Positions 1 through 7,700 of a DNA stretch of 7,700 nt are shown piece by piece. Both the position numbers and the translations under genes were made by a program. Numbering within the stretch: position 1 is the first letter of the stretch; each line of letters opens with the position of its first letter. The stretch is from a virus (taxonomy: Duplodnaviria; Heunggongvirae; Uroviricota; Caudoviricetes). The notes below the pieces were generated by a model. It saw only the letters and a list, made by a program, of their open reading frames with translations. It ran no database searches and had not been told where the DNA came from. The stretch lies in IMG/VR virus record IMGVR_UViG_2695420698_000002, one strand, 5' to 3'.

Positions 1-2126
1 AACGATACCGACGCCGGATCGCCCTGCTGCCCCCACGCATTTACTGCCCGGACTGTCAGCCTGTAGTTCCCCAGCGCCAGTTGTGTGAAGCGGTAAGTGG
101 TTTCCGTCGTCCGGGCCGTGCTGACCAGCCGCTCACTGCCGTCATCCGCTGTTACGGTCAGACGGAGCAGGAAGCTCACGCCCTTCACCACCTTCGGCGT
201 GTCCCAGCGCGCCAGCACCTGATATTCCCCGCTGTCTGCGGTGACTTCGGCAGTCAGGTGCTGCACCGCTGGCGGCGTGACACCATTCACCGTGCCGCTC
301 TGGTCGCCGTCAAAGTGCGCCCCGTTATCCACGATGGCTTCTTTTTCCGGCACATGCTGCACGGCGGTGATGGCATACGTGCCGTCGTCGTTCTCACGGA
401 TACTCACGCAGCGGAACAATCGCTGGTGCAGCGTCGGCAGCTTCAGCCCCCACACGCTGTATTCAGCAACACCGTCAGGAACACGGCTCACTTTTACCTT
501 CACGCCGTCGGTGACGGACTGGACCTCCACGCTGACCGGATTCCCCTGCCCGTCAACCAGGCTTATCAGCGTGGTGCCGGAGGATGGCAGCGTGATTTCA
601 CGGTCGAGCGTCAGCGTCCGGGTCTGGCTGTTCACCGCCAGCACGCGCCCGCCGGTGCGGATACCGGCATAGTCATCATCGCAGATTTCAATGACATCGC
701 CCGGTACATGACGAAGCCCTTCAGCACCCACGCTGAAATCCACGGTCTGCGTCTCCAGCAGTTCCGTTTTAATCAGCCACAGCCCGGCGCGGTGTGCCTG
801 CCCCCGGCTGGTACAGCCAAAGGCATCCATCTTCGTGACGTTACGACCGTAACGGACAATGGCCTGCGTATCCTCCACAAGCTCTGTCGCCGTCTCCCAG
901 CCGTTATCCGGGTCAATCCAGTTCACCTCAACGGCATTATGGCGGTCTTTCAGGGCGCTGAAACTGTAGCGGAACGGCGCGCCATCATCCGGCATCACCA
1001 CATTACTGCGGTTATAGGCCCACACCTTATCCGACTGTCGGTCCTGCACGAACGTCAGCGTCTGCCCGTTCCATACCGGCATACAGCGCATCGCCGAGCA
1101 GAAATCACTGAGCACATCCCACGCCTTGCGCTGTGTGGTCAGCCAGGCATTACAGGTGATGCGCGGCTCCGTGCTGCCAAAGCCGTCCGGCACCGACTGG
1201 TCACAGTACTGGCCGATGACATACAGCGCCCATTTATCCACATCTGCCGCACCAAGACGTTTCCCCATGCCATAGCGCGGATGGGTCAGCATATCCCACA
1301 GACACCAGGCCATGTTGTTGCTGTATGCCGGTTTTAACGTTCCGTCCCAGATACCGCTGTATTGCCGCGTCTGCGGATTATAGTTCGACGGCACCTGCAG
1401 AATGCGCCCGCGAAGATGATAATTACGGCTCACCTGCTGGCTGCCGAACTGCTCCGAATCCACCTGTACGCCGACCAGTGCCGTGTTCGGGTAGCACTGT
1501 TTCACATCGATGATTTCGGTGTATGACGACCAGAGCGTTTTGTTCTGCAGCTGGTCTGTGGTGCTGTCCGGTGTCATCCTGCGCATCCGGATATTAAACG
1601 GGCGCGGCGGCAGGTTATCCACCACCACCGAGGCCAGATACTGCGAGGTGGTTTTGCCCTTAATGGTGATGTCTTTTTCCGTCACCCAGCCACCGTTACG
1701 CTGTATCTGAACCAGCAGGCGAACTTCAGACGGATTCCTGTCTCCCTTTGAGGTGGTTTCCACCAGTGCCTGTACACCGAAGGTAAAACGCAGTCGGTCA
1801 ATGTTTGCCGACGTGATGGTCCGGGTGATCGGCGTGTCATATTTCACTTCCGTACCCAGCACCGTCTCGGAGCCGGAGGATTCAAATCCCTCCGGCGGTG
1901 ACTGCTCCTGCTCACCTGCCCGGAACACCACCGTGACGCCGGAGATGTTGGTATTCCCCTCACTGTCCAGCACCGGCGTACTGTTCAGCAGCACGCTTTT
2001 TAATCCATCCACCGGACCTTCAACCGGCCCTTCGCTGATGGCATCGATCACACTCAGCAGCTGCGTGGACTTCAGGTTGTCCTTCGCTTCGCGCGGGGTA
2101 TGCCCCTTACTGCTGCCTTTACCCAT
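1..2126 (-). CDS. J: Tail-tip host-specificity / central tail fibre protein (lambda gpJ-type), N-terminal ~708 codons; 3' end beyond window start
   Basis: Minus-strand ATG at 2126 (plus 'cat' 2124-2126) encodes MGKGSSKGHTPREAKDNLKSTQ. The ORF track lists no minus-strand ORF anywhere in 1-2186, consistent with this frame staying open to the window edge. My own translation of the reverse complement gives PAYSNNMAWCLWDMLTHPRYGMG (~1270-1340) and LTVRAVNAWGQQGDPASVSF (1-59), both matching lambda gpJ as I recall it. gpJ is 1132 aa, so the receptor-binding C-terminus is outside the window. Confidence 0.9.
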   Translation of the reverse strand, partial: MGKGSSKGHTPREAKDNLKSTQLLSVIDAISEGPVEGPVDGLKSVLLNSTPVLDSEGNTNISGVTVVFRAGEQEQSPPEGFESSGSETVLGTEVKYDTPITRTITSANIDRLRFTFGVQALVETTSKGDRNPSEVRLLVQIQRNGGWVTEKDITIKGKTTSQYLASVVVDNLPPRPFNIRMRRMTPDSTTDQLQNKTLWSSYTEIIDVKQCYPNTALVGVQVDSEQFGSQQVSRNYHLRGRILQVPSNYNPQTRQYSGIWDGTLKPAYSNNMAWCLWDMLTHPRYGMGKRLGAADVDKWALYVIGQYCDQSVPDGFGSTEPRITCNAWLTTQRKAWDVLSDFCSAMRCMPVWNGQTLTFVQDRQSDKVWAYNRSNVVMPDDGAPFRYSFSALKDRHNAVEVNWIDPDNGWETATELVEDTQAIVRYGRNVTKMDAFGCTSRGQAHRAGLWLIKTELLETQTVDFSVGAEGLRHVPGDVIEICDDDYAGIRTGGRVLAVNSQTRTLTLDREITLPSSGTTLISLVDGQGNPVSVEVQSVTDGVKVKVSRVPDGVAEYSVWGLKLPTLHQRLFRCVSIRENDDGTYAITAVQHVPEKEAIVDNGAHFDGDQSGTVNGVTPPAVQHLTAEVTADSGEYQVLARWDTPKVVKGVSFLLRLTVTADDGSERLVSTARTTETTYRFTQLALGNYRLTVRAVNAWGQQGDPASVS

Positions 2127-2147
2127 TCGTCATGCTCCATAAACGAT

Positions 2148-2168
2148 AAAACCGCCCGGAGGCGATTT
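2148..2168 (-). other. Imperfect hairpin in the I'-J intergenic spacer (copy 1)
   Basis: aaaaccgcc-cgga-ggcgattt: a 4-bp perfect GC core with flanking A/T pairs and one C.A mismatch. It sits in the ~60-nt gap between the I' stop (2187-2189) and the J start (2126). Confidence 0.3.
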
Positions 2169-2186
2169 CACATAAAACATTTTGCA

Positions 2187-2898
2187 TCAGCGACCAATCA
2201 CCACAACCTGACCACCGTCCCCTTCGTCTGCCGTGCTGATCTCCTGAGATACCACACGTGACCCCACGCGCATTTCACCATACAGAACAGGCATAACATT
2301 GCCCTGGGCAACCATGTTATCCAGTGAGGAGAAATAGGTGTTCTGCTTACCGTTATCCGTTGTCTGTGTGCGGGGAGTTCTGGCTTTCGGTGCCAGCATC
2401 TGAGCCACACCGCCGAGCACCATACTGGCACCGAGAGAAAACAGAATGCCGGTCATACCACCGGCACCAATGGCAGCCCCCCATGCTGCNNNNNNNNNNN
2501 NNNNNNNNNNNNNNNNNNNNNNNNNCTGCAAGGGTGGCTCCGGCGGTAAAGAATGATCCGGCAATGGCGGCTGCTCCCAGGACAATCTGGAATACACCAC
2601 CTGACTTGGCCCCGGCGACTCTGGGAACAATATGAATCACAGCGCCGTCAGGCAGAGCCTCATGTAACTGTGCCGTTAATCCGGACGTGCTAACATCCTG
2701 CCCGGCAATACGCACCTGATACCAGCCGTCGCTCAGCTTCTGACGAAACGCAGGGAGCTGTGTGGCCATCGCCCGGATGGCTTCGGCACCCGTTTTCACA
2801 CGAAGGTCGATGCGGCGGCCAAATCGTTGCAAATCCCCGTAAAGGCAGATGCGTGCCATGCCCGGTGACGCCAGAGGGAGTGTGTGCGTCGCTGCCAT
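2187..2898 (-). CDS. I: Tail-tip assembly protein I (lambda gpI-type, 223-aa allele), interrupted by a 36-nt N run
   Basis: Start at 2898 encodes MAATHTLPLASPGMARICLYGDLQRFGRRIDL; stop is TGA (plus 'tca' 2187-2189); C-terminus is ...ISTADEGDGGQVVVIGR. The frames either side of the N run differ by one, but the flanks overlap by 4 nt (ctgc). Removing the Ns and one ctgc gives a 672-nt ORF reading ...GATLAAWGAAIGAGG..., which is contiguous gpI. Confidence 0.8.
2490..2525. other. Run of 36 N (gap or masked bases) inside I'
   Basis: Directly visible; flanked by a duplicated ctgc. Confidence 0.99.
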
Positions 2899-3422
2899 TT
2901 GTCGGTATACCTCTCTCGTTTGCTCAGTTGTTCAGGAATATGGTGCAGCAGCTCGCCGTCACCACAGTAAATGGCGGCATGATTCGGCACCGATGAACCA
3001 AAACAGCACAGCAGCACATCGCCCGGCTGCGCCGCTGACAACGGCACCTGATACAGCCCTGTGGCCTCCAGATTATCCAGATAGAGATTCTGACCGTGAC
3101 GCCACCAGTCATCCTCACGATGAAAATCCGGCATCTCAATCCCCGCCAGATGGTAAGCATCCCGGAACAGCGTGTAACAGTCCGTCACCCCGTGCTCAAA
3201 GCGCCGCCCGGTAAGATGTGGCACACAGCGGAACTTGTGAATCGCCCCCCGGCAGACCAGCCACCACGGCAAATCACTCTGCACCTGCAGCCGCCGGTCG
3301 GCCTCACTCAGCCAGGGCAGACCACCGGGGTGGCTGTGGACCAGTGCCACAATCTCACCCTGCATCTCTGCCTGCAGCCAGTCTTCCGGCGACATACGGA
3401 AATACGCCTCCGGCTCACCGGA
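2796..3422 (-). pseudogene. K: Tail-tip assembly protein K (gpK-type, MPN/JAMM + NlpC/P60), C-terminal ~208 codons, fused in frame to a J N-terminal fragment
   Basis: Lower part of the 334-aa ORF 2796..3800. After the X it reads SGEPEAYFRMSPEDWL...HSHPGGLPWLSEAD...GVTDCYTLFRDAYHLAG...ASTFV, which is collinear with residues ~40-247 of the full K copy at 4400..5143. Its 3' end overlaps the I' start, as in the intact copy. Confidence 0.75.
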
Positions 3423-3423
3423 N
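3423..3423. other. Single ambiguous base (N) at the J-fragment / K-fragment junction
   Basis: 'ccggaNgaggtggtttcc': the left flank matches K (ccggagatatt at ~5030) and the right flank matches J (gaggtggtttcc at ~1750). Confidence 0.95.
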
Positions 3424-3800
3424 GAGGTGGTTTCCACCAGTGCCTGCACACCGAAGGTCAGGCGCAGACGGTCGATGTTTGCCGACGTGATGGTCCGGGT
3501 GATCGGCGTGTCATATTTCACTTCCGTACCCAGCACCGTCTCGGAGCCGGAGGATTCAAAACCCTCCGGCGGTGTCTGCTCCTGCTCACCTGCACGGAAC
3601 ACCACCGTAACACCGGAAAAGTTTGTCTTCCCCTCGCTGTCCAGGACCGGCGTACCGTTCAGCAGCACGCTTTTTAATCCATCCACCGGACCGTCAACCG
3701 GCCCTTCGCTGATGGCATCAATCACACTCAGCAACTGCGTGGATTTCAGGTTGTCCTTCGCTTCGCGCGGGGTATGCCCCTTACTGCTGCCTTTACCCAT
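3424..3800 (-). pseudogene. J: Host-specificity protein J, N-terminal ~126-codon fragment (second, diverged copy)
   Basis: ATG at 3800 encodes MGKGSSKGHTPREAKDNLKSTQLLSVIDAISEGP...RLRLTFGVQALVETT, then switches to K sequence at the N at 3423. It differs from the copy at 1750-2126 by several substitutions, seen in the paired antisense ORFs 1753..2142 and 3427..3816. Confidence 0.75.
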
Positions 3801-3822
3801 TCCTCACGCTCCATAAACGACA

Positions 3823-3842
3823 AAACCGCCCGCAGGCGGTTT
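3823..3842 (-). other. Perfect 8-bp hairpin in the I-J intergenic spacer (copy 2)
   Basis: aaaccgcc-cgca-ggcggttt. On the sense (minus) strand it is followed by TTTTGTCGTTT and lies ~20 nt upstream of the J-fragment ATG. Possible RNA structure or weak attenuator; function not established. Confidence 0.35.
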
Positions 3843-3860
3843 CACATAAAACATTTTGCA

Positions 3861-4502
3861 TCAGCGACCAATCACCACAACCTGACCACCATCCCCTTCG
3901 TCTGCCGTGCTGATCTCCTGAGAAACCACACGTGACCCCACGCGCATTTCACCGTACAGAACGGGCAGAACATTGCCCTGGGCAACCATGTTATCCAGTG
4001 ACGAGAAATACGTGTTCTGCTTACCGTTATCCGTTGTCTGTGTACGGGGAGTTCTGGCTTTCGGTGCCAGCATCTGTGCAACACCGCCAAGCGTCATACT
4101 GGCACCGAGAGAAAACAGCAGATTACTCGCCATAATTCCTACCCCCGGCATCCATATAGCAACCGCCATAACAGCCGCCCCCAGCACCGCCTGAAACACA
4201 CCGCCACTTTTAGCTCCCACCAGACGCGGTACTATGTGGATCACTGCACCATTTGCCAGCGGCTCATTAAGACGGGCAGACAATTCGGTTTCACCTGCAT
4301 CACGCCCGGCAATGCGCACCTGATACCAGCCGTCACTCAGTTTCTGACGAAACGCCGGGAGCTGTGTGGCCAGTGCCCGGATGGCTTCAGCCCCCGTTTT
4401 CACACGAAGGTCGATGCGGCGACCAAATCGTTGTAAATCCCCGTAAAGGCAGATGCGCGCCATGCCCGGTGACGCCAGAGGGAGTGTGTGCGTCGCTGCC
4501 AT
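3861..4502 (-). CDS. I: Tail-tip assembly protein I (gpI-type), 213-aa allele
   Basis: Complete ORF from MAATHTLPLASPGMARICLYGDLQRFGRRIDL to ...ISTADEGDGGQVVVIGR. It is 10 aa shorter than the I' allele, with the difference in the hydrophobic Gly/Ala-rich central segment. Confidence 0.9.
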   Translation of the reverse strand: MAATHTLPLASPGMARICLYGDLQRFGRRIDLRVKTGAEAIRALATQLPAFRQKLSDGWYQVRIAGRDAGETELSARLNEPLANGAVIHIVPRLVGAKSGGVFQAVLGAAVMAVAIWMPGVGIMASNLLFSLGASMTLGGVAQMLAPKARTPRTQTTDNGKQNTYFSSLDNMVAQGNVLPVLYGEMRVGSRVVSQEISTADEGDGGQVVVIGR

Positions 4503-5143
4503 TTGTCGGTGTACCTCTCTCGTTTGCTCAGTTGTTCAGGAATATGGTGCAGCAGCTCGCCGTCACCACAGTAAATGGCGGCATGATTCGGCACCGATGA
4601 ACCAAAACAGCACAGCAGCACATCGCCCGGCTGTGCCTCTGTCAGTGCGACACGGTAAAAACCCGTCACCTCCATATTGTCAAGATAGAGATTCTGACCG
4701 TTACGCCACCAGTCATCCCCGCGATGAAAATCCGGCATCTCAATCCCTGCCAGATGATAAGCATCCCGGAACAGCGTGTAACAGTCCGTCACCCCGTGCT
4801 CAAAGCGCCGCCCGGTGAGATGCGGCACACAGCGGAACTTGTGAATCGCCCCCCGGCAGACCAGCCACCACGGCAAATCACTCTGCACCTGCAGCCGCCG
4901 GTCGGCCTCACTCAGCCAGGGCAGACCACCGGGGTGGCTGTGGACCAGTGCCACAATCTCACCCTGCATCTCTGCCTGCAGCCAGTCTTCCGGCGACATA
5001 CGGAAATACGCCTCCGGCTCACCGGAGATATTCACGCAGGGGAAATATCTTTCCCCCTCCGGCGTTCTTACCACGAAGCCGCACGACTCCGCTGGAGCAC
5101 ATCGCCGGGCGTGCGCCAGAATCGCTGATTCTGTCTCTGTCAT
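4400..5143 (-). CDS. K: Tail-tip assembly protein K (gpK-type), 247-codon ORF with MPN/JAMM motif and NlpC/P60-like Cys/His region
   Basis: Starts MTQTESAILAHARRCAPAESCGFVV. JAMM signature H-x-H-x7-S-x2-D is present as HSHPGGLPWLSEAD (residues ~68-81). Cys/His-containing region GVTDCYTLFRDAYH...HAAIYCGDGELLHH follows. The ATG lies 5 nt downstream of the L' stop. The ORF overlaps the I start by ~103 nt in another frame. Confidence 0.9.
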   Translation of the reverse strand: MTETESAILAHARRCAPAESCGFVVRTPEGERYFPCVNISGEPEAYFRMSPEDWLQAEMQGEIVALVHSHPGGLPWLSEADRRLQVQSDLPWWLVCRGAIHKFRCVPHLTGRRFEHGVTDCYTLFRDAYHLAGIEMPDFHRGDDWWRNGQNLYLDNMEVTGFYRVALTEAQPGDVLLCCFGSSVPNHAAIYCGDGELLHHIPEQLSKRERYTDKWQRRTHSLWRHRAWRASAFTGIYNDLVAASTFV

Positions 5144-5148
5144 GGGAT

Positions 5149-5847
5149 TTACTGCGAAAGTTTGTTAATGGAAAGGAAGCCGCCAAAGTTGCCGACGTTA
5201 TTGCGAAACTTACAGCCACTCAGGCATTTGCTGCATTTATCCTTCGTGATGTCGGACGTTGGCTGGTCATATTCATCCGCGACCGCCGGACCGTGATAAC
5301 CGCACTCATCGCCGCGATAGGTCCAGGTGCAGGTGTTGGCCAGCATGATACGTCCCGGAAAAACAGCGCCATCTGTTTCCGTCGGCGTGGACAGTACAAA
5401 AGAGGCACTCACCGCGCTCAGTTCGCTGCACTGCTCAATGCGCCAGCGGCTGATCACCTCCTGCTCCGGATCGGCGTCACTGTTTCCGTTGACGAAGTTC
5501 ACCGCATCCAGAAAACGGGCGTAAACCTTACGCCGGACCACCGTTCCGCCGACCAGACTCTGTAGATCTTCCGCCATCCCGGTGACCATACCGTACAGGT
5601 TAGAAACCATCAGCGTGGGGCGCGTACTGGTGCCTTTGCCATTCAGTTCAAAACCACTCCCCTGAATGGGATACGGCTGATACTGTCGCCCCTGCCAGGT
5701 GACCGGCTCACCTTTTTCGTTCTGCTCATTACAGAAAAAATAACGTTCTCCACCGACCTCTGTCAGATCGATTTCCCAGAGCACCACGCTGGCCGACTGC
5801 TCCGCACGGGTGCATTCATTCAGTGTTTCCTGCCGGATATCCTGCAT
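5149..5847 (-). CDS. L: Tail-tip assembly protein L (lambda gpL-type), 232 aa
   Basis: MQDIRQETLNECTRAEQSASVVLWEIDLTEVGGERYFFCNEQNEKGEPVTWQGRQYQ...CSKCLSGC...FLSINKLSQ. Length and sequence match lambda gpL as I recall it. The C-terminal cysteine cluster is present. The start overlaps the M' stop (TGATG). Confidence 0.92.
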   Translation of the reverse strand: MQDIRQETLNECTRAEQSASVVLWEIDLTEVGGERYFFCNEQNEKGEPVTWQGRQYQPYPIQGSGFELNGKGTSTRPTLMVSNLYGMVTGMAEDLQSLVGGTVVRRKVYARFLDAVNFVNGNSDADPEQEVISRWRIEQCSELSAVSASFVLSTPTETDGAVFPGRIMLANTCTWTYRGDECGYHGPAVADEYDQPTSDITKDKCSKCLSGCKFRNNVGNFGGFLSINKLSQ

Positions 5848-6125
5848 CAGTTCACCACCTGTTCAAACTCTGCGCTGAACTCAACACGCAGCATACTGAC
5901 CCGCGACGACCATTTTGCGCAGGTCACCTTTATCTGCCGCCACTCATAAGGCGGCGTCCACAGAAAGGCTTTCCAGCCCCCGTGCTCTTCCAGAAACGAC
6001 TCCAGTACCATGGCCTCCTCACGGGGGACAGAAAGCGTCACGCTGTACGTTTTCAGGTTGGCATTCAGCCCGGCAGGCGCTCGCTGGGAATAGCCATCAC
6101 CAAAGCGCACCTTTCTTACAGAAGG
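5847..6125 (-). pseudogene. M: Tail-tip assembly protein M, diverged allele, C-terminal ~92 codons; 5' end replaced by N run and K sequence
   Basis: PSVRKVRFGDGYSQRAPAGLNANLKTYSVTLSVPREEAMVLESFLEEHGGWKAFLWTPPYEWRQIKVTCAKWSSRVSMLRVEFSAEFEQVVN aligns collinearly with residues ~18-109 of the M at 7261..7590 (shared GDGY, TYSV, FLExHGG, WTPPY, KW, FEQVV) but with many substitutions. Stop is TGA at 5847-5849. Confidence 0.7.
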
Positions 6126-6136
6126 NNNNNNNNNNN
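6126..6136. other. Run of 11 N at the K-fragment / M'-fragment junction
   Basis: Directly visible. The right flank (ccggcatctcaatccctgcc) is K sequence, identical to ~4733-4752; the left flank is M' sequence. Confidence 0.99.
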
Positions 6137-6548
6137 CCGGCATCTCAATCCCTGCCAGATGATAAGCATCCCGGAACAGCGTGTAACAGTCCGTCACCCC
6201 GTGCTCAAAGCGCCGCCCGGTGAGATGCGGCACACAGCGGAACTTGTGAATCGCCCCCCGGCAGACCAGCCACCACGGCAAATCACTCTGCACCTGCAGC
6301 CGCCGGTCAGCCTCACTCAGCCAGGGCAGACCACCGGGATGACTGTGGACCAGCGCCACAATCTCACCCTGCATTTGTGCCCGCAGCCAGTCCTCCGGAG
6401 CCATCCGGAACCGTTCCTCCGGCTCACCGGAGATATTCTCGCTGGGAAGATACCTGTCTCCCTCCGGCGTTCTTACCACGAAGCCACACGACTCCGCTGG
6501 CGCACATCGCCGGGCGTGCGCCAGAATCGCTGATTCTGTCTGTGTCAT
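6137..6548 (-). pseudogene. K: Tail-tip assembly protein K, N-terminal ~138 codons (diverged allele), truncated at the N run and fused in frame to the M' fragment
   Basis: ATG at 6548 (plus 'cat' 6546-6548), 4 nt after the L stop. Encodes MTQTESAILAHARRCAPAESCGFVVRTPEGDRYLPSENISGEPEERFRMAPEDWLRAQMQ...HSHPGGLPWLSEAD...HLAGIEMP and then runs into the Ns. It differs from the K at 4400..5143 at several residues. Confidence 0.75.
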
Positions 6549-6552
6549 GGAT

Positions 6553-7251
6553 TTACTGAGAAAGTTTATTGATGGAAAGGAAACCGCCGAAATTACCGGT
6601 ATTGTTGCGCAACTCACACCCGCGCATACACTTGCTGCATTTGTCCTTCCGGATATCCGTCGTTGGTTTGTCGAACTCGTCAGCCACTGCCCTGCCCGTG
6701 TAACCACACTCATCAGAACGGTAAGTCCACATACAGGTATTCGCCAGCATGATACGCCCCGGGAAAACCGCGCCATCCGTCTCCGTTGGTGTGGCCAGCA
6801 CAAAAGAGGCACTGACCGCGCTCAGTTCGCTGCACTGCTCGATGCGCCAGCGGCTGATCACCTCCTGTTCCGGATCGGCGTCGCTGTTTCCGTTGACGAA
6901 GTTCACCGCATCCAGAAAACGGGCGTAAACCTTACGCCTGACCACCGTTCCGCCGACCAGACTCTGCAGGTCTTCCGCCATCCCGGTGACCATTCCGTGC
7001 AGGTTAGAAACCGTCAGTGTCGGACGGGCAGCACTGCCCTTGCCGTTCAGTTCAAATCCCGTCCCCTGAATGGGGTATGCCTGATACTGCCGCCCCTGCC
7101 AGGTAACCGGCTCACCTTTTTCGTTCTGCTCATTACAGAAAAAATAACGTTCTCCACCGACCTCTGTCAGATCGATTTCCCAGAGCACCACCTGGGCTGA
7201 CTGAGTGAGGCGTGTCGTCTCATGATGTGTTTCCTGTGGAATATCCTGCAT
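6553..7251 (-). CDS. L: Tail-tip assembly protein L (gpL-type), 232 aa, diverged allele
   Basis: MQDIPQETHHETTRLTQSAQVVLWEIDLTEVGGERYFFCNEQNEKGEPVTWQGRQYQ...CSKCMRGC...FLSINKLSQ. Same length as L', with substitutions clustered at the N-terminus and around the cysteine region. Confidence 0.9.
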   Translation of the reverse strand: MQDIPQETHHETTRLTQSAQVVLWEIDLTEVGGERYFFCNEQNEKGEPVTWQGRQYQAYPIQGTGFELNGKGSAARPTLTVSNLHGMVTGMAEDLQSLVGGTVVRRKVYARFLDAVNFVNGNSDADPEQEVISRWRIEQCSELSAVSASFVLATPTETDGAVFPGRIMLANTCMWTYRSDECGYTGRAVADEFDKPTTDIRKDKCSKCMRGCELRNNTGNFGGFLSINKLSQ

Positions 7252-7260
7252 CAGAGCCTC

Positions 7261-7590
7261 CTATGCCACGACCTGTTCAAAATCTGCCGTTATGGTTACC
7301 CACAACGCCCCCACGCTTGCCGACCATTTACGACAAACCACCCTGATCGGCTTCCAGTCATAAGGTGGCGTCCACTGAAATGCGCGGACGCCACCGTGCC
7401 GTTCCAGAAAGGCTTTTAAAAATGGGTGTTCACCTTTACGAACACGTATCTTCACGCTGTAAGTCGACAACTGGTTATTCAGTCCCGCCGCACGACGCTG
7501 TTCATAACCATCGCCCAGCTTCACTGTCACCACTTTCGGCTCTGATACCACATTCATATCCGGGCGCACTTTCCAGTGAAACGTCTCCAT
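7261..7590 (-). CDS. M: Tail-tip assembly protein M (lambda gpM-type), 109 aa
   Basis: METFHWKVRPDMNVVSEPKVVTVKLGDGYEQRRAAGLNNQLSTYSVKIRVRKGEHPFLKAFLERHGGVRAFQWTPPYDWKPIRVVCRKWSASVGALWVTITADFEQVVA. Length matches lambda gpM. Position is between the H end and L. Confidence 0.9.
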   Translation of the reverse strand: METFHWKVRPDMNVVSEPKVVTVKLGDGYEQRRAAGLNNQLSTYSVKIRVRKGEHPFLKAFLERHGGVRAFQWTPPYDWKPIRVVCRKWSASVGALWVTITADFEQVVA

Positions 7591-7700
7591 TACCGGTATG
7601 CTCCACTTAACCGGCCACCATCACGGGCCTGCTGTTGCATAAAGTCCGCGGCCGCTTTTTTCCCGAGGTCATAAACCACCTTCAGGGCAGCCGGACCTAT
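7590..7700 (-). CDS. H: Tape-measure protein (gpH-type), last 36 codons plus stop; 5' end beyond window
   Basis: My translation of the only open minus-strand frame gives IGPAALKVVYDLGKKAAADFMQQQARDGGRLSGAYR, ending in a TAA that shares its last A with the M start (TAATG). The other two frames have stops within the first 20 nt. Assignment is by synteny (H precedes M in lambda); the peptide was not matched from memory. Confidence 0.6.
   Translation of the reverse strand: MGPAALKVVYDLGKKAAADFMQQQARDGGRLSGAYR

What the first reader, a model, noticed from the sequence alone, without database searches (positions are those of the whole stretch)
2796..3800. In-frame chimeric ORF: J N-terminus (~126 aa) joined to K residues ~41-247
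The 334-aa ORF reads as J up to ...ALVETT, one X, then K from SGEPEAYF onward. The frame is kept across the join, and the flanks share a short ga/gag microhomology. If real, it would produce a J-K fusion protein that keeps the K JAMM motif and Cys/His region. If an artefact, it marks a mis-join.
Basis: seen in the sequence. Interest (0 to 1): 0.45.

Follow-up and report, generated by a model that had tools for sequence, protein, structure and literature searches.

The report
Scaffold mis-join, not a gene fusion
The apparent J-K fusion gene is an assembly artefact: the single N at 3423 joins pieces of two different prophages that lie about 689 kb apart in finished Shigella sonnei-type chromosomes, so no such protein should exist.

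Summary
ORF 2796-3800 (-) reads as tail-tip protein J residues 1-125, one TCN codon (Ser whatever the N is), then tail protein K residues 40-247.

It is not a gene. The window is a complete 7,700-bp draft scaffold (CXCP01000192.1). It interleaves two lambdoid prophage tail modules:
- **X**, an intact prophage: window 6125->4824, 3422->2526 and 2489->1, at 99.9-100% identity.
- **Y**, a remnant flanked by insertion sequences: window 7700->6137 and 4903->3424, at 99.9% identity.

X and Y lie about 689 kb apart on the same finished chromosome, CP104423.1. The N at 3423 sits exactly where Y's J meets X's K.

Further signs of mis-assembly:
- The 203 bases left of the N duplicate 4824-5026 exactly.
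- Block 3424-6125 switches from Y to X inside an 80-bp stretch identical in both.
- All five single-base differences from the references carry the other copy's base.
- The 36-N gap is really a 4-bp overlap.

None of 5,426 complete E. coli genomes has this junction. None of the 120 best protein hits in a 5.8-billion-protein database is a J-K fusion. The join also cuts both adjoining domains.

Interest is very low.

The parts
1..2489 (-). Block 1, prophage X. Holds the J gene start (ATG at 2126) through residue ~708, running off the window end, plus the C-terminal part of tail assembly gene I (2187-2489).
   Evidence: 99.92% identical (2 mismatches in 2489) to L014 = CP104423.1, locus positions 10203-7715. 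Pfam finds FNIII-A_GpJ, Phage-tail_3 and Ig_J.
2490..2525 (.). 36-N scaffold gap inside gene I of X. The true distance is a 4-bp overlap (CTGC).
   Evidence: The flanks map to L014 7715 and 7718, so they overlap by 4 bases. The same is seen in E. coli L004, at 3004/3001.
2526..3422 (-). Block 2, prophage X. Holds K residues 40-247 (2796-3422) and the N-terminal part of I (2526-2898).
   Evidence: 100% identical (897/897) to L014 7718-6822. In X the sequence preceding it on the sense strand is ...GTGAATATC, the normal K N-terminus.
3220..3422 (.). Redundant edge of block 2: an exact 203-bp duplicate of 4824-5026, the same piece of X's K represented twice.
   Evidence: Exact run of 203 bases.
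3423..3423 (.). Single N, the mis-join point between X's K (left) and Y's J (right).
   Evidence: Homology to X ends at 3422 and homology to Y starts at 3424.
3424..3800 (-). Prophage Y: J gene nucleotides 1-377 (residues 1-125 plus 2 bases).
   Evidence: Part of 3424-4903, which is 99.86% identical to L024/L007/L032. In Y the J gene continues as AAAGGGTGACCGG.... The block end lies inside a 29-bp stretch identical in X and Y.
2796..3800 (-). The reported 334-aa chimeric ORF (Y J 1-125, Ser, X K 40-247).
   Evidence: It is also called as a 334-aa gene in the source record.
3861..4502 (-). Prophage Y: tail assembly gene I (213 aa).
   Evidence: The exact protein is found in normal M-L-K-I-J context in finished chromosomes. 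A source names it '[Shigella sonnei]'.
4400..5143 (-). K ORF that is itself a hybrid: X at the N-terminus (down to 4824), Y at the C-terminus (below 4824), with a small X-like patch at 4512-4633.
   Evidence: Mismatch maps. This exact protein occurs on one contig only, this one, among the 153 billion gene positions indexed.
4824..4903 (.). 80-bp stretch identical in X and Y, where block 3424-6125 switches from Y to X.
   Evidence: The last mismatch to X is at 4823 and the first dense mismatch to Y is at 4904.
4824..6125 (-). Prophage X: K N-terminal part, L (5149-5847) and M residues ~18-109 (5847-6125).
   Evidence: 100% identical (1302/1302) to L014, L015 and L022.
6126..6136 (.). 11-N scaffold gap: a second non-collinear join (Y K residue ~137 to X M residue ~18), also in frame.
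6137..7700 (-). Block 4, prophage Y: K residues 1-137 (6137-6548), L (6553-7251), M (7261-7590). The first 172 bases (6137-6308) duplicate 4732-4903 exactly.
   Evidence: 99.94% identical (1 mismatch in 1564) to L007-L010, L024, L026 and L032. The exact run of 172 bases is.

Best explanation
The J-K ORF is a scaffolding and gap-filling artefact in a short-read draft assembly.

The isolate, of Shigella sonnei type, carries at least two lambdoid prophage tail modules that are about 85-95% identical and share short exact stretches:
- X, an intact lambda-like prophage.
- Y, a remnant flanked by insertion sequences.

The assembler could not resolve these copies. Pieces of X and Y were chained into one 7.7-kb scaffold in the order Y-left | X-left+Y-right | X-middle | X-right, with N marks at the joins.

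The single N at 3423 marks a join between the end of the Y piece (J nucleotide 377) and the start of an X piece (K codon 40). Those two pieces are not adjacent in the genome. Because both happen to be in the same reading phase (a 1-in-3 chance), a gene caller reads one 334-aa ORF.

Shown here: the mapping of each block to X or Y, the redundancy of the block edges, the switch inside block 3424-6125, and the mixing of bases between the two copies.

Inferred: the software steps. Greedy paired-read scaffolding followed by edge extension, as in SSPACE plus GapFiller, would give this picture. I do not know which pipeline made this record.
For: 1. The window is the entire record CXCP01000192.1 (7,700 bp, GCA_001257415.1), made only of repeated prophage tail genes.

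2. Every break in collinearity coincides with an N-run. 3423 joins J back to K and 6126-6136 joins K back to M, each a backward jump of about 1.4-1.6 kb in gene-order coordinates.

3. Blocks map as follows:
   - To X: 1-2489 at 99.92%, 2526-3422 at 100%, 4824-6125 at 100%.
   - To Y: 3424-4903 at 99.86%, 6137-7700 at 99.94%.

4. X and Y lie on the same finished chromosome. In CP104423.1 the K codon-40 site is at about 1,305,194 and the J nucleotide-377 site at about 1,993,945, which is 688.8 kb apart. They are about 687.5 kb apart in JBEAAA010000004.1.

5. In those chromosomes Y's J continues normally to 1159 aa, and X's K has its normal N-terminus.

6. The block edges are redundant exact copies: 3220-3422 = 4824-5026, and 6137-6308 = 4732-4903.

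7. Block 3424-6125 switches from Y to X in an 80-bp shared stretch.

8. All 5 single-base differences from the reference loci carry the base of the other copy.

9. The 36-N gap is in truth a 4-bp overlap, so N-run lengths here are estimates made by a scaffolder.

10. The junction is absent from 5,426 complete E. coli genomes, from one genome per species in GTDB and from IMG/VR. None of the 120 best protein hits is a J-K fusion.

11. The join truncates both adjoining folded domains.

12. Page et al. 2016 (PMC5320598) state that SSPACE and GapFiller are greedy and can make false joins. Boetzer & Pirovano 2012 (PMC3446322) state that GapFiller extends both gap edges base by base and closes a gap only if at least 10 nt overlap.
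Against: - No reads were available, so the absence of reads spanning 3423 is inferred, not observed.
- The comparison genomes are other strains, not this isolate.
- One RefSeq 'complete' E. coli genome (FY26) does contain J-fragment-to-K-fragment joins without N, at other breakpoints. Such joins are therefore not formally impossible, although that case is unique to FY26 and may itself be a mis-assembly.
Confidence: 0.97

Rival explanations
1. A real chromosomal rearrangement in this isolate. Illegitimate recombination joined Y's J (nucleotide 377) to X's K (codon 40), for example the junction of a ~689-kb tandem duplication or an excised circle. This would create a genuine in-frame J-K fusion gene, and the N would be a single uncalled base.
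For: - The frame is kept and the ORF is open for any base at 3423.
- X and Y have the same orientation in CP104423.1, so a duplication junction would have this topology.
- FY26 shows that N-free J-to-K joins exist in a deposited complete genome.
Against: - The only single N in 7.7 kb falls exactly on the homology breakpoint.
- The scaffold also contains a second backward join at an N-run, redundant exact edge copies, an X/Y switch inside an 80-bp repeat, and mixed bases from the two copies. These point to assembly confusion, not to one clean rearrangement.
- No other assembly or protein record has this junction.
- Both joined domains are truncated.
Confidence: 0.015
2. A chimeric template rather than a software join: a PCR or library chimera, or a chimeric read, between the two prophage copies was assembled as continuous sequence, with the N as a low-quality consensus base.
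For: - The join lies in stretches shared between copies. The J edge is inside a 29-bp stretch identical in X and Y.
- Mixed bases from the two copies are present.
Against: - Template switching needs homology at the switch point. Here J sequence is joined to unrelated K sequence with at most 2 shared bases.
- The other N-runs have variable lengths (11 and 36) and behave as scaffold gaps.
- Either way the feature would still be an artefact.
Confidence: 0.015

Closest known systems
Repeat-induced scaffold mis-joins in short-read bacterial drafts (greedy paired-read scaffolding and gap filling, e.g. SSPACE/GapFiller, as discussed in PMC5320598 and PMC3446322)
   Same: - N marks at the joins, with variable and wrong lengths.
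- Contig edges extended into repeats, so that they duplicate each other.
- Copies of a repeated region placed in series.
- Mixed consensus bases from the two copies.
- A short scaffold made only of repeats.
   Different: The pipeline used for GCA_001257415.1 is not known to me. That a single N is what remains of a gap filled from both sides is my inference, not something I checked.
Phage lambda tail tip genes M-L-K-I-J (gpK = JAB/MPN + NlpC/P60 'C40 family peptidase'; gpJ = TipJ tip attachment protein)
   Same: Each half of the ORF is ordinary gpJ or gpK sequence, 99.9-100% identical to prophage genes of finished Shigella sonnei-type chromosomes. The gene order within each block is the lambda order.
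   Different: In every finished genome examined, K precedes I and J, and each is a separate full-length gene. Here a J fragment precedes a K fragment in one ORF.
E. coli FY26 chromosome NZ_CP101741.1, 4146242-4159722
   Same: A chain of partial tail modules in series (M L K I J' | M L K I J' | K I J' | 'K I .. J), including J-fragment-to-K-fragment joins.
   Different: It has no N at the joins. The breakpoints differ (J ~152 aa / K from ~36; J 201 aa / K). The alleles are 92-96% identical to the window's. It is unique to that one record among 5,426 genomes. I did not determine whether it is real or also a mis-assembly.
Other chimeric K proteins in public protein collections
   Same: Singleton products from one contig each that join K to something else or to itself: K-K internal duplications (P0001-P0005), L-K, K-I, K with a middle part of J (P0053), and an unrelated N-terminus joined to K (P0012).
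   Different: None of them is a J N-terminus joined to K residue 40.

Membership tests
Lambda gpK-type tail protein (Prok-JAB + NlpC/P60, 'C40 family peptidase') | Complete JAB/MPN domain, including the upstream catalytic Glu as well as HxHx7SxxD | tested here: not met
   Prok-JAB matches profile positions 45-103 of 114 only, at 25.1 bits against a cut-off of 25. K residues 1-39, including E19, are absent. The HSHPGGLPWLSEAD segment is present. The motif definition is from my own knowledge.
Lambda gpK-type tail protein (Prok-JAB + NlpC/P60, 'C40 family peptidase') | Complete NlpC/P60 domain | tested here: met
   NLPC_P60 matches profile positions 1-105 of 105, E = 1.1e-12.
Lambda gpK-type tail protein (Prok-JAB + NlpC/P60, 'C40 family peptidase') | Gene sits between L and I | tested here: not met
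   I follows it, but a J fragment precedes it instead of L. In finished genomes the order is always L-K-I-J.
TipJ / lambda gpJ tip attachment protein | Full domain series: FNIII-A, Phage-tail_3, Ig_J and so on, about 1130-1165 aa | tested here: not met
   Only FNIII-A profile positions 3-47 of 126 are present. Full J proteins in related loci are 1132-1165 aa.
Genuine gene fusion | Junction is continuous determined sequence | tested here: not met
   An N lies exactly at the breakpoint, 3423.
Genuine gene fusion | Junction recurs in independent assemblies or protein records | tested here: not met
   Found in 0 of 5,426 complete E. coli genomes, 0 in genome contigs and viral contigs, and no J-K fusion among the best 120 protein hits. 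The companion hybrid K protein occurs on this contig only.
Scaffold mis-join between copies of a repeated region | The two flanks map at near 100% identity to two separate loci of a finished genome of the same lineage | tested here: met
   X and Y are 688.8 kb apart in CP104423.1 and 687.5 kb apart in JBEAAA010000004.1. Flank identities are 100% and 99.86%.
Scaffold mis-join between copies of a repeated region | Redundant contig edges, and consensus bases mixed between the two copies | tested here: met
   Exact duplicates of 203 and 172 bp at block edges. 5 of 5 differences from the references carry the other copy's base.
Scaffold mis-join between copies of a repeated region | No reads or read pairs support the junction | not testable with these tools

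The most novel reading that the evidence does not exclude
In this one isolate, a real illegitimate recombination between two prophages 689 kb apart (for instance a large tandem-duplication junction) created an expressed J(1-126)-K(40-247) fusion protein, and the N is just an uncalled base.
Probability: 0.015. Interest if true: 0.25.

Novelty: not a real feature. Interest (0 to 1): 0.03.

Why it matters
It matters only as quality control. The 334-aa 'protein' is called as a gene on the public record. The same applies to the hybrid K at 4400-5143 and the K-M ORF across the 11 N. Such products can pollute protein databases as false domain architectures (FNIII-A_GpJ + JAB + NlpC/P60).

The protein search suggests this is common for prophage tail genes: many singleton K chimeras are on record. 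There is no biological consequence for phage tail assembly or for Shigella.

Tried and rejected
- **Junction pattern scans.** CCTCCGGCTCACCGGANGAGGTGGTTTCCACCAG gave 0 hits in genome contigs and viral contigs. A target N may not be matched by a pattern N, so the source record itself could be missed.
- **Exact look-up of the 334-aa product.** Not on record, probably because of the X residue. The source was found instead through the hybrid K protein.
- **The three 'at least 80% covered' hits in E. coli genomes.** H2 and H3 are K-fragment-then-J-fragment deletion remnants in the normal gene order, not this junction. H1 (FY26) has the same topology at other breakpoints.
- **P0001 and P0002.** Their bit scores (675 and 647) looked like fusions. 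They are K proteins with internal K-K duplications.
- **A recent tandem duplication of K..J.** Rejected: the two copies of the repeated unit are only 94.2-94.5% identical and map to different loci.
- **The N as an IUPAC G/T ambiguity between two read populations.** Not needed, and it would not change the protein (TCN = Ser).
- **The fetch of an annotated region for CP023645.1.** Failed; the record is not in those collections.

Full report
**What is in the window**

All genes lie on the minus strand and are lambdoid tail-tip genes. Read from 7700 down to 1, the order is:
- M, L, K (residues 1-137)
- [11 N, 6126-6136]
- M (residues ~18-109), L, K, I, J (residues 1-125)
- [1 N, 3423]
- K (residues 40-247), I (interrupted by 36 N, 2490-2525), J (residues 1-708, running off the end)

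The only non-ACGT characters are these three N-runs. The window is the whole of one public record, CXCP01000192.1 of assembly GCA_001257415.1, 7,700 bp. It is therefore a small scaffold made only of repeated prophage genes.

**The observation**

ORF 2796-3800 (-) is 334 aa, as described. The 'X' codon is TCN, which is Ser for any base, so resolving the base would change nothing. J's own residue 126 is Ser (TCA).

On the sense strand the join reads J ...GAAACCACCTC + N + TCCGGTGAG... K. It is blunt, with at most two shared bases.

Pfam shows that both domains at the join are cut:
- FNIII-A_GpJ stops at profile position 47 of 126.
- Prok-JAB starts at profile position 45 of 114.
- NlpC/P60 is whole.

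K's first 39 residues are missing, including the Glu of AESCGF. By my knowledge of the JAMM motif, that is the upstream catalytic Glu. Being in frame is a 1-in-3 event. The second odd join, across the 11 N, is also in frame (ORF 5847-6812).

**Internal signs of assembly trouble**

Self-comparison gave these results:
- 2694-3422 matches 4298-5026 at 94.5%.
- 1750-2444 matches 3424-4118 at 94.2%. The repeated units are therefore different copies, not a fresh duplication.
- The last 203 bases before the N (3220-3422) are an exact copy of 4824-5026.
- The first 172 bases after the 11-N gap (6137-6308) are an exact copy of 4732-4903.

Blocks next to the N-runs thus end in redundant exact copies of sequence that is present elsewhere in the scaffold.

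**Mapping to finished genomes**

Exact-protein look-ups brought in finished chromosomes. Two loci explain every base of the window.

- **Locus X** is an intact lambda-like prophage with head and tail genes upstream (L014 = CP104423.1 1298373-1311071; also L015, L022).
  - Window 4824-6125: 100% (1302/1302).
  - Window 2526-3422: 100% (897/897).
  - Window 1-2489: 99.92%.
- **Locus Y** is a tail-gene remnant flanked by insertion sequences (L024 = CP104423.1 1988523-1995221; also L007-L010, L026 and L032 = CP000038.1).
  - Window 6137-7700: 99.94%.
  - Window 3424-4903: 99.86%.

The wrong assignments give only 86-94%.

X and Y are on the same chromosome. The K codon-40 site of X and the J nucleotide-377 site of Y are 688.8 kb apart in CP104423.1 and 687.5 kb apart in JBEAAA010000004.1, computed from the ranges and the alignments. 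In those genomes, J of Y runs on to 1159 aa (after nucleotide 377: AAAGGGTGACCGG...). K of X has its normal N-terminus (...GTGAATATC before TCCGGTGAG).

**More detail that fits mis-assembly**

- Block 3424-6125 is itself a hybrid. It has no mismatch to X from 4824 upward and only two mismatches to Y below 4904, so the switch lies in the 80 bases (4824-4903) that X and Y share exactly.
- The K ORF at 4400-5143 is therefore also artificial. Its exact product occurs on no contig but this one among the gene positions indexed.
- The Y block ends at J nucleotide 377, inside a 29-bp stretch identical in X and Y.
- All five single-base differences between the window and the reference loci (1572, 1578, 4557, 4568, 7153) carry the base of the other copy.
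- The 36-N gap corresponds to a 4-bp overlap of its flanks (CTGC; L014 7715-7718). The N-run lengths are therefore estimates, not measured sequence.

**Is the junction seen anywhere else?**

- No complete E. coli genome of 5,426 has it.
- The pattern is absent from one genome per species in GTDB and from IMG/VR.
- A search of 5.8 billion proteins with the fusion (X set to Ser) gave no J-K fusion among the best 120 hits. A close J-K fusion should outscore the K-only hits (about 499 bits) and so would appear among them.
- The two top hits are K proteins with internal K-K duplications.
- Many other singleton K chimeras are on record (L-K, K-I, K with a piece of J). This suggests that such artefacts are common for these genes.

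**One caveat: strain FY26**

E. coli FY26 (NZ_CP101741.1) is labelled a complete genome. It holds a chain of partial tail modules with N-free J-fragment-to-K-fragment joins at other breakpoints. That junction is unique to FY26. I did not determine whether it is real.

**Mechanism**

The steps shown are the interleaving of two loci, the redundant edges, the switch inside a shared stretch, and the mixed bases from the two copies.

The inferred step is the software cause. Paired-read scaffolding linked contigs of the two copies that should overlap, not follow each other. Edge extension then filled the gaps until almost nothing was left.

Two papers support this in general terms:
- Page et al. 2016 (PMC5320598) describe such a pipeline (Velvet, SSPACE, GapFiller) and say that both tools are greedy and can make false joins. 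Their public dataset includes 299 S. sonnei assemblies.
- Boetzer & Pirovano 2012 (PMC3446322) say that GapFiller extends each gap edge one base at a time and closes a gap only with an overlap of at least 10 nt.

That would leave the 4-bp overlap at 2490-2525 unclosed. I do not know which pipeline made this record.

**Organism**

The three exact proteins I looked up carry the source name '[Shigella sonnei]'. CP000038.1 is, to my knowledge, S. sonnei Ss046. The best identity of block 2526-3422 in complete E. coli genomes is only 98.8%. A Shigella sonnei draft is the likely source, but this is inferred.

**Verdict**

The fusion-protein reading is rejected and the mis-join reading accepted, with confidence 0.97. 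It is not a real feature, and interest is 0.03.

Noticed in passing
window 5847-6812 (-): A second in-frame chimeric ORF (321 aa) runs across the 11-N gap. It joins Y's K residues 1-137 to X's M residues ~18-109. It is the same kind of artefact as the reported one.
   Followed up: yes
window 4400-5143 (-): This K ORF looks intact at 247 aa but is a hybrid of X (N-terminal part) and Y (C-terminal part). The switch lies in an 80-bp shared stretch (4824-4903). Its exact product is on record for this one contig only.
   Followed up: yes
window 2490-2525: The 36-N gap inside gene I of X corresponds to a 4-bp overlap (CTGC) of its flanks. It splits I into two ORFs in different frames (2353-2898 and 2187-2630).
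   Followed up: yes
window 1572, 1578, 4557, 4568, 7153: All five single-base differences from the finished X and Y loci carry the base of the other copy. This points to reads from the two copies being mixed in the consensus, or less likely to gene conversion.
   Followed up: partly
L003 (NZ_CP101741.1, E. coli FY26) 11243-24723: A RefSeq 'complete' chromosome has four to five partial tail modules in series: M L K I J' | M L K(frameshifted) I J' | K I J' | 'K I hyp J' | 'J. There is no N at the joins. The J'-to-'K join is unique to this record among 5,426 genomes. It is possibly a mis-assembly of the same kind.
   Followed up: partly
P0001-P0005, P0012, P0053: Public protein collections hold many singleton chimeric K proteins. 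These include K-K internal duplications, a K joined to a middle part of J, and an unrelated N-terminus joined to K at residue ~40 (P0012; the same K breakpoint region, ISGEPEAYF). They are probably assembly artefacts in prophage repeats.
   Followed up: partly
L002 (NZ_CP104123.1) 3390-4836; also NZ_CP159689.1: Two complete E. coli genomes have a degraded prophage in which a K fragment abuts a J fragment in the normal gene order, with I deleted. This differs from the window's J-then-K order.
   Followed up: partly
L007-L010, L024-L033 (locus Y): In finished chromosomes the Y tail module is a prophage remnant. Insertion-sequence transposase genes lie directly upstream of M, and late-regulation genes (DUF1367, YbcO, a Q-like antiterminator) lie beyond them. 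There are no head genes or tape-measure gene.
   Followed up: no
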